Source: a virus (lineage: Duplodnaviria; Heunggongvirae; Uroviricota; Caudoviricetes). From it: 64,000 bases of DNA. Below the pieces are notes generated by a model, which had not been told where the DNA came from, did no database searches, and saw only the letters and a program-made list of their open reading frames with translations. The position numbers were made by a program, and so were the translations under genes. Where the stretch lies: IMG/VR virus record IMGVR_UViG_643348549_000020. The stretch is one strand, 5' to 3'. Below are positions 27,031-33,323 of the stretch, in pieces (the stretch's first letter is position 1; the number at the start of each line of letters is the position of its first letter).

Positions 27031-27214
27031 TATTCCTCCCGGCCGGGATAGTGTATTAAATCAGATATGGAGTGGGCTGTAGTCCGGAAGCCTGAATGAC
27101 ACACGGGGACTACAGCCCAAGAAATGAAAAAAGGCCACGCAGTTGCGCAGCCTGATAAACCCTGGTTAAAATCCACACGATAACAACACAACAATATCAG
27201 TATCTCATGCTATT

Positions 27215-27240
27215 GCCCGAACCCATTCGGGCATTTTTTT
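27215..27240 (+). terminator. Intrinsic terminator (hairpin gcccgaacccattcgggc plus T8), plus-strand orientation
   Basis: Seen directly in sequence. Confidence 0.5.
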
Positions 27241-27246
27241 ACCCAT

Positions 27247-27270
27247 AAAAAAGCCCCTCCGGAGAGGGGC
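27247..27270 (-). terminator. Intrinsic terminator (hairpin gcccctctccggaggggc plus T6) in late-transcript orientation
   Basis: Seen directly; forms a back-to-back terminator pair with 27215-27240. Confidence 0.5.
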
Positions 27271-27508
27271 ATGTTTGCATGCACATTCTTTTTCTTGCAT
27301 GGTGCCGGGTGCCTCCCGGTGAATTCAGTACCAGCACCTGAATCCGCGATTACCCCATATACCTGGTTGCTGATTGCCCCTCCGCACAGGGGGATTCACC
27401 ATGCCAGTTTCTTTTAACAAACTCCCCGCAAACCAGACAACAGTCAACCGCCTGAATTGTGAGACATTTAAAAAAAGGCCCGCAAAAGCGAGCCAGGGAA
27501 AATAAGTG

Positions 27509-27584
27509 TGGCGCGTTGTACTGGATTCGAACCAGCGACCTGGCGATTATGCGTCGCTCGCTCTCACCACTGAGCTAAAGGGCC
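27509..27584 (-). tRNA. tRNA-like sequence, 76 nt, anticodon CAU (Ile2/Met type body), probably a degenerate or chimeric pseudo-tRNA
   Basis: D-arm GCTCAGTGGTGAGAGC and T-loop GGTTCGAATCC are intact, but the acceptor strands GGCCCTT and ACAACGC cannot pair, position 33 is G, and there is an A27-C43 mismatch. Confidence 0.5.
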
Positions 27585-32122: not shown

Positions 32123-32339
32123 CAGAATCCTTCCAGATAAATAGCACTCCCCTGTTCGGGGTCCATCCCTCTTCTCCCTGCGCGCTACTTAAGTATTTTT
32201 GATTCTATTCCGGCGCCGTCCGGAACTTCAAACGCGTTGAAAATAAAAACAAAAACCCGCCGAAGCGGGTTAAGTGCGGGTGCGTTGAGGATGCCTGACA
32301 CATCAGAGGTGGCGAGGGATTTCTCCCCCGCCTGGTCTC

Positions 32340-32495
32340 TTACTCCTCAGGTTCGTAAGCTGTGAAGACAGCGACCTCCGTCTGGCCGGTTCGGATTCGT
32401 ACCTCGCAGAGGTCTTTCCTCGTTACCAGTGCCGTCACTATGACGGTTAAACAGATGACGATCAGGGCGATTAGCATCGCCTTTTGCTGCTTCAT
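32340..32495 (-). CDS. hok: Hok-family type I toxin (51 aa); overlapping mok-type leader frame extends to 32552
   Basis: MKQQKAMLIALIVICLTVIVTALVTRKDLCEVRIRTGQTEVAVFTAYEPEE corresponds to HokD/RelF as I recall it. Confidence 0.8.
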   Translation of the reverse strand: MKQQKAMLIALIVICLTVIVTALVTRKDLCEVRIRTGQTEVAVFTAYEPEE

Positions 32496-32740
32496 AGCCT
32501 GCTTCTCCTTGCCTTTCGGCACGTAAGAGGCTAACCTACGTGTGTAGAGCATAGATATGGCCTCAGATTAATGTTAAGCGTCTTGCCGGACGCGTAATGT
32601 TAACTGGGGCTTTTCTCTATCTGCCGTTGGTGTTCATGCCCGAGGCAGATAGCCTCAAGCACCCGCAGCAATTCTACTTAACTCTCGCTTTACCGCAAAC
32701 CGTTTTTACCCGATATGGGAATTCCCATATCGTAATGAAT

Positions 32741-32845
32741 TCAGTTCCCTAGTCGATCCATCAAAAACACAACCAGGCAGTAAACGCCCACAACAGCAAT
32801 AACAGCCAGCGCACCTTCCATTGCCAGTGAAATATCATCCGACAT
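32741..32845 (-). CDS. 34-aa hydrophobic peptide (MSDDISLAMEGALAVIAVVGVYCLVVFLMDRLGN) with strong RBS; not in the ORF track
   Basis: ggaggg RBS 6 nt before ATG; single predicted transmembrane helix. Confidence 0.3.
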   Translation of the reverse strand: MSDDISLAMEGALAVIAVVGVYCLVVFLMDRLGN

Positions 32846-32960
32846 ATTCCCTCCTTTGGTGTGAATCCCGGCGAACGTTTTTACCCCCACCGACAAATAA
32901 CATATACTAAAAAATCAATAGCTATAGCAACGCCTGTAATTGCAAAGGCTTCAGGCCAGA

Positions 32961-33323
32961 TCATTGGCGCACCTCCTGCGGCGGTTCTGGTAGCGGCATC
33001 CAGTGTGACGGTTTCCACGACGCACCAGGAATTATCCACCCATCATTAGCGTCAGGATGCCCCGGGATGTAAGTAGCCAATTTCATTCGCCAGTCACCTT
33101 TCCTGTCAAACTCCACGGCAACAAGAACGGCTGTTTTGGTATTCGGCATTCGCTCACTACAGCTTATCCAACCATCCGGAGTTACCGGAGAATTGCCAGC
33201 CTTGCGCATGGCAATCTCCATGATTTCAACCATATCTCCTGGTGGAATTTTACAATGCTGACCAATATGCCTCTGCTGCCTGGCATATTCGAGGATGTGC
33301 TCCAGCTTGATACGATTAATCAT
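32961..33323 (-). CDS. DUF551-family phage protein
   Basis: C-terminal ...WMPLPEPP motif characteristic of DUF551. Confidence 0.55.
   Translation of the reverse strand: MINRIKLEHILEYARQQRHIGQHCKIPPGDMVEIMEIAMRKAGNSPVTPDGWISCSERMPNTKTAVLVAVEFDRKGDWRMKLATYIPGHPDANDGWIIPGASWKPSHWMPLPEPPQEVRQ

What the first reader, a model, noticed from the sequence alone, without database searches (positions are those of the whole stretch)
32340..32845. Hok-type toxin plus an unannotated 34-aa hydrophobic peptide ORF immediately upstream
The hok coding sequence with overlapping mok frame is clear. About 250 bp upstream, in the same orientation, a 34-aa single-helix peptide ORF with a strong RBS is missed by the 60-aa ORF threshold. 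It could be a second small toxin or membrane peptide, or part of the sok-side regulatory region.
Basis: partly seen in the sequence, partly recalled or inferred. Interest (0 to 1): 0.45.

Follow-up and report, generated by a model that had tools for sequence, protein, structure and literature searches.

The report
Prophage hok/sok toxin with neighbouring mini-peptides
This stretch of an E. coli O157:H7 prophage holds a well-known hok/sok toxin-antitoxin locus, and just upstream a real 34-residue membrane-peptide gene that is already annotated and already published as translated, but whose function is unknown.

Summary
All features lie on the minus strand.

**hok/sok.** 32340-32664 is a complete hok/mok/sok type I toxin-antitoxin locus, annotated hokD in RefSeq. 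About 95% of aligned positions match the tested hokW-sokW of phage 933W/Sp5. This part is already known.

**The 34-aa ORF (32741-32845).**
- It has a GGAGG ribosome-binding site and one predicted membrane helix.
- All 170 retrieved copies are open; 168 keep the full length.
- Its substitutions favour silent changes (normalised ratio 0.27).
- It is not unannotated: RefSeq lists it as hypothetical protein WP_001278450.1, and Hücker et al. 2017 reported it as the ribosome-profiled gene XECs145.
- It is not part of the sok side. Sok maps to 32544-32614 (+), and the ORF ends 76 nt upstream of the hok mRNA 5' end.
- It does not look like a type I toxin. It matches no toxin family, has no conserved antisense promoter, and is well translated in growing lysogens.

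**New here.**
- A second ORF of 27 aa (32881-32964) has a start codon that overlaps the DUF551 gene's stop.
- A 54%-identical, 29-aa relative sits in the same position in other phages.
- Both peptides almost always sit beside hok, yet hok often occurs without them.

Function is unknown; most likely these are accessory inner-membrane peptides.

The parts
32340..32495 (-). hok (hokD-type) toxin CDS, 51 aa
   Evidence: ORF list. Pfam HOK_GEF E = 1.2e-23. PHROG 251 'MokW-like host killing' E = 2.8e-33. RefSeq names it hokD, WP_000813254.1.
32340..32552 (-). mok reading frame: a 70-aa in-frame N-terminal extension of hok
   Evidence: ORF list. Same layout as the annotated mokW/hokW of phage 933W.
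32247..32664 (-). Predicted full-length hok mRNA. The 5' tac box GGGUGCUUGAGG is at 32653-32664, the 3' fbi box CCUCAACGCACCC at 32278-32290, and the terminator stem at 32254-32271.
   Evidence: The Rfam RF01794 hit at 32490-32664 starts at model position 1 (111.7 bits). Terminator scan. The minimum-energy and centroid folds both pair the 5' end with the 3' fbi box, z = -7.37. 365 of 385 aligned positions match the hokW locus of 933W.
32544..32614 (+). Sok antisense RNA (antitoxin), complementary to the mok start region
   Evidence: Coordinates transferred from the annotated sokW misc_RNA of 933W through a near-identical alignment. It folds into a long hairpin followed by a U-tail, z = -5.26.
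32509..32537 (+). Inferred Sok promoter: TTGCCT, 17-nt spacer, TAACCT, ending 6 nt before the Sok 5' end
   Evidence: Read from the sequence. It is positioned relative to the sokW-derived 5' end and falls below the threshold of the consensus scan. This is an inference.
32671..32698 (-). Inferred hok promoter: -35 TTGCGG (32693-32698), 16-nt spacer, -10 TAGAAT (32671-32676)
   Evidence: Read from the sequence. TAGAAT and the following TGCTGC-GGGTGC are kept in nearly all 52 distinct hok upstream contexts while everything further upstream varies. This is an inference.
32711..32732 (.). Perfect 22-bp palindrome CGATATGGGAATTCCCATATCG between the 34-aa ORF and the hok promoter; role unknown
   Evidence: Unique in the window; 0 of 100 shuffles gave a match. 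Present in all 85 class-A loci with enough downstream sequence. Kept without the ORF in 4 contexts, one of them with a compensatory change. It has no U-tract on either strand, so it is not a classical terminator.
32741..32845 (-). 34-aa single-helix peptide gene (RefSeq WP_001278450.1; XECs145 of Hücker et al. 2017). Shine-Dalgarno AAGGAGGG at 32849-32856.
   Evidence: Purifying selection. Present in 673 of 5426 complete E. coli genomes, at 1464 places. RIBOseq: LB translatome RPKM 346.1, ribosomal coverage value 4.35, coverage 0.99.
32881..32964 (-). 27-aa hydrophobic peptide ORF MIWPEAFAITGVAIAIDFLVYVICRWG. Its ATG overlaps the TGA of the DUF551 gene (ATGA). Shine-Dalgarno GGAGG at 32972-32976.
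   Evidence: The ATGA junction is present in 64 of 64 distinct contexts, behind more than one kind of upstream sequence. L003 carries an in-frame 6-nt deletion. 21 haplotypes, median pairwise dN/dS 0.19, variable sites by codon position 13/10/20. Not annotated in RefSeq; annotated in a few GenBank records.
32876..32886 (.). 11-bp direct repeat GGGTAAAAACG (minus-strand reading). The second copy is at 32701-32711. Together they bracket the 34-aa ORF plus the palindrome.
   Evidence: These are the only two copies in the window. Phages of class C, including 933W, read ...TAAAAACGGTTTGCGG with nothing between.
32961..33323 (-). DUF551 gene (context): the nin-region gene to which the 27-aa ORF is coupled
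   Evidence: Pfam DUF551 E = 4.6e-22; RefSeq annotation.

Best explanation
The region is the nin (early-right) segment of a lambdoid prophage of E. coli O157:H7. All its genes point from cro/O/P towards Q.

**1. hok/sok (32247-32664).** This is a complete, ordinary hok/mok/sok type I toxin-antitoxin locus.
- A stable hok mRNA is closed by pairing of its 5' tac box with its 3' fbi box.
- Translation of hok depends on mok.
- An unstable antisense Sok RNA (32544-32614, +) blocks the mok start.

**2. The 34-aa ORF (32741-32845).** This is a separate, genuine protein-coding gene for a small single-pass inner-membrane peptide.
- It ends 76 nt upstream of the hok mRNA 5' end, so it lies outside the hok/sok RNA circuitry.
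- It is preceded by a second tiny membrane-peptide gene of 27 aa, which is translationally coupled to the DUF551 gene.

**3. Inferred steps.**
- Both peptides are made from the early-right transcript after induction, and at a basal level in lysogens.
- They insert in the inner membrane, probably with the acidic N-terminus outside and the Arg-containing C-terminus inside.
- They act as non-lethal accessory ('moron'-type) membrane peptides, not as toxins.
- Their near-constant position next to hok is best explained by mosaic recombination. The highly conserved hok locus acts as a recombination joint, so short genes directly beside it stay linked to it.

Their molecular target is unknown.
For: **hok/sok**
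- Pfam HOK_GEF and Rfam sok at 111.7 bits.
- The terminator and the tac-fbi closure in the fold, z = -7.37.
- Sok mapped from the annotated sokW, with a hairpin and U-tail, z = -5.26.
- About 95% of aligned positions match hokW-sokW, which was shown experimentally to be a type I toxin-antitoxin pair that aids Sp5 release (PMC8621323).

**The 34-aa ORF is a real gene**
- A GGAGG-containing ribosome-binding site about 4 nt before the ATG.
- 168 of 170 copies are full length; 12 synonymous versus 9 conservative non-synonymous variants; ratio 0.27, p = 0.003; variable sites by codon position 3/4/11.
- A 29-aa relative, 54% identical, in mEp460/Tritos/HannyBb-type phages, with dN 0.37 against dS 1.18.
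- RIBOseq in strain Sakai: ribosomal coverage value 4.35, coverage 0.99 in LB; machine-learning verdict 'real'; predicted inner membrane with one helix.

**Separate from hok/sok**
- It lies upstream of the hok promoter.
- hok occurs without it in 36 of 52 distinct upstream contexts.
- It occurs without hok in one sequence context, seen in L002, L246 and L247.

**Not toxin-like**
- No match in Pfam, NCBIfam, PHROG or PADLOC.
- No Rfam family over the ORFs.
- The plus-strand promoter-like hexamers are lost in natural variants.
- Net charge is -3.
- It is strongly translated in growing cells.

**27-aa ORF:**
Against: - No experiment addresses the function of either peptide. 'Accessory, non-toxic' is inferred from expression level and sequence features only.
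- The RIBOseq ORF XECs145 was defined with an upstream start. It spans 162 nt and includes the 3' end of the 27-aa ORF.
- The locus is present in several copies per genome, so read assignment and the exact start codon are not proven.
- The linkage to hok is strikingly tight. 84 of 85 class-A copies with enough downstream sequence have the hok 5' box 74-76 nt after the stop. The linkage persists across a peptide divergence of dS about 1.2. That could reflect a functional tie rather than hitch-hiking.
- The loci analysed are the best 80 per scan and are redundant, so the counts are not an unbiased census.
Confidence: 0.72

Rival explanations
1. The 34-aa peptide, with or without the 27-aa one, is a functional partner of Hok. 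It might be a membrane modulator or immunity factor, or a helper that tunes Hok-assisted lysis after induction. The three small membrane peptides would then form one module.
For: - 84 of 85 class-A copies are followed by hok at a fixed 74-76 nt.
- The diverged 29-aa homologue sits in the same place, about 42 nt before the hok 5' end, in other phage lineages.
- One locus (L035) has the 27-aa ORF, then the 29-aa homologue, then hok.
- The peptides almost never occur without hok, whereas hok occurs without them. That asymmetry is expected for an accessory partner.
- HokW is known to act at prophage induction (PMC8621323).
Against: - hok loci lack the 34/29-aa peptide in 36 of 52 upstream contexts. 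These include clean deletions that leave only its last codons or only the palindrome.
- The 27-aa ORF is disrupted in 3 contexts although hok is intact.
- Per the authors' description, cloned hokW-sokW behaved as a toxin-antitoxin pair without any mention of upstream peptides.
- Plasmid hok/sok systems have no such peptides (established knowledge).
- The linkage can be explained by recombination at the conserved hok sequence.
Confidence: 0.12
2. The 34-aa peptide is a second small membrane toxin, either a type I toxin or an orphan.
For: - It is short, with a single strongly hydrophobic helix: best 17-residue window has a mean Kyte-Doolittle value of 2.95.
- It lies next to a known type I toxin.
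- Two sigma-70-like hexamer pairs lie on the opposite strand at 32821-32848 and 32880-32908.
Against: - No hit to any toxin family in Pfam or NCBIfam at E up to 1-10.
- The antisense hexamers coincide with coding and start-codon bases. They are broken in natural variants (A8V, the GTG start) and are absent in class B and C loci.
- There is no plus-strand terminator and no Rfam match.
- The mRNA has an exposed strong Shine-Dalgarno sequence, and the ORF has a high ribosome load in growing cells. That is the opposite of a silenced toxin.
- The peptide is acidic (net charge -3), not basic.
Confidence: 0.08
3. The ORF is not a gene. The conservation would reflect a non-coding role, such as a hok upstream regulatory element or a leader for read-through hok transcripts, or simply recent common ancestry.
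For: - Most class-A copies are at least 95% identical, so diversity is shallow.
- The palindrome and the hok promoter lie directly downstream.
- ORFs of this length are common by chance.
Against: - There is an excess of synonymous and third-position changes in class A, in class B and between the two classes.
- Start and stop codons change only into other start and stop codons.
- The Shine-Dalgarno sequence is kept in both classes although the surrounding sequence differs.
- There are ribosome footprints with 0.99 coverage.
- hok works without this segment in many phages.
Confidence: 0.05

Closest known systems
hokW-mokW-sokW of Stx2 phages 933W/Sp5, and hokD (relF) of E. coli K-12: the Hok/Gef family of type I toxin-antitoxin systems
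   Same: - A 51-aa Hok with the HOK_GEF domain and an in-frame mok extension.
- Antisense Sok with a hairpin and U-tail.
- A 5' tac / 3' fbi closure of the mRNA and an intrinsic terminator.
- 163 of 170 aligned positions in the leader match 933W.
- The same location in the nin region of a lambdoid prophage.
   Different: - The Hok C-terminus is ...FTAYEPEE (hokD type) rather than ...FVDYESEK (HokW).
- The sequence upstream of the promoter differs. 933W has only the 27-aa ORF abutting the promoter. This window also has the 34-aa ORF and a palindrome between 11-bp repeats.
XECs145 (Hücker et al. 2017, PLoS One 12:e0184119) / RefSeq WP_001278450.1 'hypothetical protein'
   Same: The same 34-residue sequence. 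It was reported as transcribed and translated in O157:H7 Sakai, predicted to be an inner-membrane protein with one helix, and classified 'real' by the authors' classifier.
   Different: - The paper used a longer ORF (54 aa in its tables) from an upstream start codon, and found no Shine-Dalgarno sequence there.
- The conserved GGAGG-ATG, the RefSeq call and the 29-aa homologues all support the 34-aa form.
- No function, hok linkage or 27-aa neighbour is described in the sections and supplementary tables examined.
Small membrane type I toxins (Ldr, Ibs, ShoB, TisB, ZorO, DinQ, Hok)
   Same: Length of about 30 aa with a single hydrophobic helix.
   Different: No sequence match to any family model, no antisense RNA, acidic rather than basic, a strong exposed ribosome-binding site, and translation in growing cells.
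Small regulatory inner-membrane proteins of E. coli (for example AcrZ, MgtS, MgrB; from general knowledge)
   Same: Size, single-pass topology and non-toxic expression. This is the kind of role proposed here.
   Different: No sequence relationship, and no known partner. This peptide is prophage-encoded and restricted to Escherichia/Shigella phages.

Membership tests
[quoted passage not shown] | A toxin of about 50 aa with the Hok/Gef domain | tested here: met
   HOK_GEF scores 82.9 bits against a cut-off of 22, E = 1.2e-23.
[quoted passage not shown] | A mok reading frame that overlaps hok and starts in the Sok target region | tested here: met
   A 70-aa ORF at 32340-32552. Its ATG lies inside the Sok-complementary stretch 32544-32614. 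Same layout as the annotated mokW.
[quoted passage not shown] | A cis-encoded antisense Sok RNA with its own promoter and terminator | tested here: met
   Homology to the annotated sokW. Hairpin plus U-tail, z = -5.26. Rfam sok model at 111.7 bits against a gathering score of 59. The promoter hexamers are inferred from the sequence only.
[quoted passage not shown] | Long-range 5' (tac) to 3' (fbi) pairing that keeps the full-length mRNA inert | tested here: met
   The minimum-energy and centroid folds of 32247-32664 pair GGGUGCUUGAGG with CCUCAACGCACCC; z = -7.37.
[quoted passage not shown] | Hok is toxic and Sok neutralises it | not testable with these tools
   Shown for the closely related hokW-sokW (PMC8621323), not for this copy.
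Type I membrane toxin (candidate status of the 34-aa peptide) | A small hydrophobic single-helix peptide | tested here: met
   Overall mean hydropathy (GRAVY) 1.33; best 17-residue window 2.95. Hücker S8 Table lists inner membrane and one helix.
Type I membrane toxin (candidate status of the 34-aa peptide) | Sequence membership of a described toxin family (Ldr, Ibs, ShoB, TisB, Hok and others) | tested here: not met
   No Pfam or NCBIfam hit at E up to 1-10. BLASTP against Hok gives E = 0.56.
Type I membrane toxin (candidate status of the 34-aa peptide) | A conserved antisense or overlapping RNA antitoxin | tested here: not met
   The plus-strand promoter-like hexamers are not conserved in variants or in class B and C loci. 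There is no plus-strand terminator and no Rfam match. Absence of a transcript cannot be proven from sequence.
Type I membrane toxin (candidate status of the 34-aa peptide) | Translation kept off in growing cells | tested here: not met
   Published RIBOseq: translatome RPKM 346 against transcriptome 79 in LB, a ribosomal coverage value of 4.35. A strong Shine-Dalgarno sequence is present.
Type I membrane toxin (candidate status of the 34-aa peptide) | Toxicity on overexpression | not testable with these tools
   Needs an experiment.
XECs145 / WP_001278450.1 protein cluster | An identical or nearly identical 34-aa sequence in the same prophage context | tested here: met
   An exact match is annotated at the homologous site of TW14359. 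The exact sequence is in the protein collection, seen on 984 contigs. The XECs145 sequence contains it.

The most novel reading that the evidence does not exclude
Prophage hok loci may carry a conserved set of one or two ultra-small membrane peptides: the 27-aa WPEA...CRWG peptide and the 34/29-aa ...YCL..LMDRL peptide. These would work together with Hok, for example as membrane-level modulators or antagonists that set when Hok permeabilises the membrane after induction. That would add a protein layer to what is regarded as a purely RNA-controlled type I system.
Probability: 0.1. Interest if true: 0.6.

Novelty: already known. Interest (0 to 1): 0.25.

Why it matters
The hok/sok part adds nothing new. 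It is one more copy of a well-studied prophage toxin-antitoxin locus.

The 34-aa peptide is a useful confirmed small protein. It has comparative and published ribosome-profiling support and is present in about 12% of complete E. coli genomes, often in several copies. But it is already in RefSeq and in the literature, and nothing here points to an unusual mechanism.

The modest new value is as follows.
- **Start codon.** The true start is fixed, giving 34 aa rather than the longer published form.
- **27-aa ORF.** A second peptide gene is absent from RefSeq in the genomes inspected, and from the 933W record, where a homologous 27-aa ORF sits unannotated directly in front of hokW.
- **Linkage to hok.** Both peptides are almost always physically tied to hok.

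If that linkage proved to be functional, it would change how prophage hok systems are thought to be controlled.

Tried and rejected
- **Homologue search.** I ran no further search on the artificially extended ORF because the exact-sequence cluster look-up already gave the names.
- **Phage collection.**
  - tblastn against deposited phages found no close copy, only four hits at 44-50% identity with E about 0.1. These turned out to be true positional homologues.
  - blastn of the region against phages matched only the flanks.
- **Family libraries.** Pfam, NCBIfam, PHROG and PADLOC gave nothing credible for any of the four small peptides. The weak hits (SecE, Cmr5, DUF883_C, phrog_38566) are far below their cut-offs and look like hydrophobic-composition noise.
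- **RNA families.** An Rfam E-value scan over 32600-33100 found only the sok model.
- **Antisense RNA.** An antisense RNA for the peptide was considered because of two plus-strand promoter-like sites. It was rejected because the hexamers are coding or start-codon bases that vary in natural alleles.
- **Palindrome as terminator.** Rejected: there is no U-tract on either strand.
- **Palindrome as repeated operator.** No second copy exists in the window, even with 3 mismatches allowed.
- **Relationship among the peptides.** Similarity of the 34-aa peptide to Hok, to the 27-aa peptide or to the class-D peptide is not significant.
- **Literature strings.** Searches for the accession and for peptide strings found no main-text mention.
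- **Structure prediction.** Not run, because a single 34-residue helix would not discriminate between the hypotheses.
- **Metagenome scan.** Not run. The species-representative scan found only Escherichia and Shigella genomes plus three short metagenome-bin contigs labelled as other genera.
Full report
**Where the window comes from**

The 901 bases around the finding are 100% identical to E. coli O157:H7 chromosomes such as TW14359. In that record the surrounding genes are all on the window's minus strand. In order they are:
- cro/cI-type regulators;
- YdaT, a DnaT-like O protein and P;
- DUF1627 and DUF977;
- three hypothetical proteins;
- DUF551;
- a 105-nt 'hypothetical protein';
- hokD;
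- two hypothetical proteins;
- DUF968, RusA and the Q antiterminator.

This is the early-right (nin) region of a lambdoid prophage, and every gene discussed below points from cro towards Q.

**The observation**

The hok CDS is 32340-32495 (-), 51 aa. Pfam HOK_GEF scores 82.9 bits against a cut-off of 22. The mok frame is the in-frame 70-aa extension 32340-32552, the same layout as the annotated mokW/hokW of phage 933W.

The 34-aa ORF MSDDISLAMEGALAVIAVVGVYCLVVFLMDRLGN is 32741-32845 (-). AAGGAGGG sits about 4 nt before its ATG, and its stop is 245 nt upstream of the hok ATG. The ORF alone would not be remarkable, since 46 ORFs of at least 20 aa overlap this 2.3-kb stretch.

**The hok/sok locus is complete and known**

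- The Rfam sok model matches 32490-32664 (-) at 111.7 bits and begins at model position 1, at GGGUGCUUGAGG.
- An intrinsic terminator lies at 32254-32271.
- Folding 32247-32664 as RNA pairs the 5' box with CCUCAACGCACCC (32278-32290) in both the minimum-energy and the centroid structure. The z-score is -7.37. This is the tac-fbi closure that defines hok mRNAs.
- Aligned to 933W, 163 of 170 leader positions and 365 of 385 positions overall are identical.
- Transferring the annotated sokW RNA places Sok at 32544-32614 on the plus strand. That stretch folds into a long hairpin with a U-tail, z = -5.26.
- TTGCCT-17-TAACCT ends 6 nt before the Sok 5' end. This promoter is inferred from the sequence only.
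- hokW-sokW has been shown to be a type I toxin-antitoxin pair that promotes Sp5 release after mitomycin C (PMC8621323).
- hok genes are known to be enriched in prophages (bioRxiv 10.1101/2025.08.07.668861).

Nothing about this part is new.

**The 34-aa ORF is a real gene, but neither unannotated nor unreported**

*Annotation and distribution*
- RefSeq annotates it as hypothetical protein WP_001278450.1.
- It occurs in 673 of 5426 complete E. coli genomes at 1464 places. It is annotated as a hypothetical protein in every row listed and in the six further loci fetched.

*Conservation across retrieved copies*
- I collected 170 copies in 67 distinct sequence contexts. All are open; 168 are 105 nt and two are 99 nt.
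- There are 15 nucleotide haplotypes, with 12 synonymous and 9 non-synonymous variants.
- The non-synonymous ones are A8V, M9I, I16V, A17V, G20V, G20S, F27L, D30E and N34S.
- The site-normalised ratio is 0.27 (binomial p = 0.003).
- Variable sites by codon position are 3/4/11.
- The only start and stop changes are ATG to GTG and TGA to TAA.

*Published translation evidence*
- Hücker et al. 2017 list the ORF, with an upstream start, as the novel translated gene XECs145.
- In LB the transcriptome RPKM is 79.1, the translatome RPKM 346.1, the ribosomal coverage value 4.35 and the coverage 0.99.
- In BHI control the values are 121.3 / 150.1 / 1.14 / 0.84. Translation is lost under cold and osmotic stress.
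- Caveats: their ORF spans 162 nt and includes the last 22 nt of the 27-aa ORF, and the locus is multi-copy.

**It is not part of the hok/sok RNA circuitry**

The ORF ends 76 nt upstream of the hok mRNA 5' end. It lies beyond the inferred hok promoter (-35 at 32693-32698, -10 at 32671-32676) and 126 nt beyond the Sok 3' end.

I fetched 80 IMG/VR loci chosen only for encoding the identical Hok protein. The sequence is constant from the -10 hexamer onward and becomes a mosaic immediately upstream. The 52 distinct upstream contexts divide as follows:

| Class | What lies upstream of the hok promoter | Contexts |
|---|---|---|
| A | the 34-aa ORF | 6 |
| B | a 29-aa homologue | 10 |
| C | only the 27-aa ORF | 7 |
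| C, disrupted | a broken 27-aa ORF | 3 |
| D | an unrelated 32-aa hydrophobic ORF (MEKIDV...) | 6 |
| E | only the last codons of the 29-aa ORF | 4 |
| F | only the palindrome | 4 |
| other | unrelated sequence | 11 |
| no tac box | none recognised | 1 |

So hok does not need the peptide. Conversely, one sequence context (seen in L002, L246 and L247) keeps both peptides but lacks hok. In L002 the break falls at the hok -10 hexamer, and IbrB-like and PAPS-reductase genes lie beyond it on the other strand.

**A homologue in the same position**

The only tblastn hits in deposited phages were weak, at 44-50% identity. All of them lie on the hok strand in phages Tritos, Evi, mEp460_ev081 and HannyBb. 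In the three that I fetched, the peptide ORF ends about 42 nt before the hok mRNA 5' end.

The ORF there is MLVLKCALAIAAVMAIYCLAVVLMDRLSD, with a GGAGG site and a GTG start.
- It is 54% identical to residues 7-34 of the window peptide.
- dN is 0.37 and dS is 1.18 between the two classes. Within class B there are 9 synonymous and 9 non-synonymous variants, with variable sites by codon position 4/4/10.
- Three diverged class-B upstream sequences share TTGAA(T/G)-N17-CATATT about 35 nt before the ribosome-binding site. This suggests the ORF has its own promoter.
- A scan of one genome per species found the family in an Escherichia ruysiae and a Shigella flexneri genome. It also found it on three short contigs from metagenome bins labelled Collinsella, 'Scatousia' and Haemophilus.

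**A second, overlooked peptide gene**

Directly upstream lies a 27-aa ORF, MIWPEAFAITGVAIAIDFLVYVICRWG, at 32881-32964 (-).
- Its ATG overlaps the TGA of the DUF551 gene (ATGA), and GGAGG sits 7 nt upstream.
- The ATGA junction is present in 64 of 64 distinct contexts, behind more than one kind of upstream sequence.
- One allele carries an in-frame 6-nt deletion.
- There are 21 haplotypes, with a median pairwise dN/dS of 0.19 and variable sites by codon position 13/10/20.
- In 933W a homologous ORF (MTWPEAFANVGTVMAVVLVVYSICRWR) abuts the hokW promoter and is not annotated.
- RefSeq does not annotate it in the genomes inspected. A few GenBank records do.

**How the 34-aa segment sits in the locus**

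In the window, the 34-aa ORF plus a perfect 22-bp palindrome (32711-32732) is bracketed by the only two copies of GGGTAAAAACG, at 32876-32886 and 32701-32711. Class-C phages look like the same locus without the segment between these repeats.

**Is it a toxin?**

The evidence says no.
- No family model matches in Pfam, NCBIfam, PHROG or PADLOC.
- Similarity to Hok is not significant.
- The two plus-strand promoter-like sites are built from coding and start-codon bases. They are broken in natural alleles and absent in classes B and C.
- There is no plus-strand terminator, and no Rfam match over the ORFs.
- The peptide is acidic, with net charge -3.
- It has an exposed strong Shine-Dalgarno sequence and is heavily ribosome-loaded in growing lysogens.

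A silenced type I toxin would show the opposite of these last features.

**Linkage with hok**

Of 85 class-A copies with enough downstream sequence, 84 carry the hok 5' box 74-76 nt after the stop. L108 has a one-base variant of the box; only L002 lacks hok. Of 95 copies, 94 have an intact 27-aa ORF upstream. One locus, L035, has the 27-aa ORF, then the 29-aa homologue, then hok.

I think the most economical explanation is recombination. The nearly invariant hok locus serves as a recombination joint in mosaic lambdoid genomes, so very short genes next to it remain linked on that side.

A functional partnership with Hok is not excluded, and I give it about 10%. The counts come from redundant best-80 samples and are not a census.

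**Verdict**

The hok/sok locus is known and ordinary. The 34-aa ORF is a genuine, translated, conserved small inner-membrane protein gene. It is already in RefSeq and already published as XECs145; its function is unknown and it is probably not a toxin.

The structural description is right, 'unannotated' and 'sok-side regulatory region' are wrong, and 'second toxin' is unsupported.

The new points are the corrected 34-aa start, the coupled 27-aa gene, the positional homologue in other phages, and the one-sided linkage to hok.

Noticed in passing
window 32881-32964 (-): A 27-aa hydrophobic ORF (MIWPEAFAITGVAIAIDFLVYVICRWG) whose ATG overlaps the stop of the DUF551 gene (ATGA). It is conserved under purifying selection, is not annotated in RefSeq, and a homologous ORF sits unannotated directly in front of hokW in phage 933W.
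   Followed up: yes
window 32711-32732: A perfect 22-bp palindrome, CGATATGGGAATTCCCATATCG, centred about 57 nt upstream of the hok mRNA 5' end. It is kept with hok even where the 34-aa ORF is missing (L028, L089). L016 carries a diverged copy with one compensatory change. It has no U-tract, so it is not a classical terminator. It could be a regulator site or an RNA hairpin.
   Followed up: partly
window 32701-32711 and 32876-32886: The only two copies in the window of the 11-mer GGGTAAAAACG bracket the 34-aa ORF plus the palindrome. Phages with only the 27-aa ORF look like the same locus with this roughly 175-bp segment absent. That suggests gain or loss by recombination between the repeats.
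   Followed up: partly
L022, L012, L018 and others (IMG/VR), about 100-200 nt upstream of the hok 5' end: A fourth, unrelated small hydrophobic ORF (MEKIDVLILMFGHINALFLGVFMAVMCIEYWR, 32 aa) occupies the position before the hok promoter in 6 of 52 contexts. Together with classes A, B and C, 29 of 52 hok upstream contexts hold an intact mini membrane-peptide ORF.
   Followed up: partly
L008-L010, L011, L035, L092 and others, about 35 nt upstream of the class-B peptide ribosome-binding site: TTGAA(T/G)-N17-CATATT is conserved in three otherwise diverged upstream sequences. It is a likely own promoter for the 29-aa peptide gene. With no terminator before hok, its transcripts would read into the hok locus.
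   Followed up: partly
L002 (NZ_AP045173.1), locus 1-1340: In this strain the hok locus is replaced, from the hok -10 hexamer onward, by convergent IbrB-like and PAPS-reductase genes, while both small peptide genes are kept. L246 and L247 show the same peptide alleles, also without hok.
   Followed up: no
window 27178-27578 and 39395-39446: Rfam gathering-score hits elsewhere in the window: AgvB anti-GcvB sRNA (27178-27239, +), STnc100 (27241-27433, -), a tRNA-like hit (27519-27578, -) and DicF (39395-39446, +).
   Followed up: no
L091, L094, L095 (genome contigs): Short contigs (2.6-3.3 kb) carrying the class-B peptide and the hok leader are binned in metagenome-assembled genomes labelled Collinsella, 'Scatousia' and Haemophilus. 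An 'Actinobacillus phage' record also carries a hok locus 94.7% identical to one from E. coli phages (H138). These are probably mis-binned or contaminant E. coli phage sequences.
   Followed up: no
L008 (phage HannyBb) 1908-2197: The deposited annotation places two CDSs on the strand opposite to the peptide and the hok leader. It does not call the 29-aa peptide ORF. This is probably mis-annotation.
   Followed up: no
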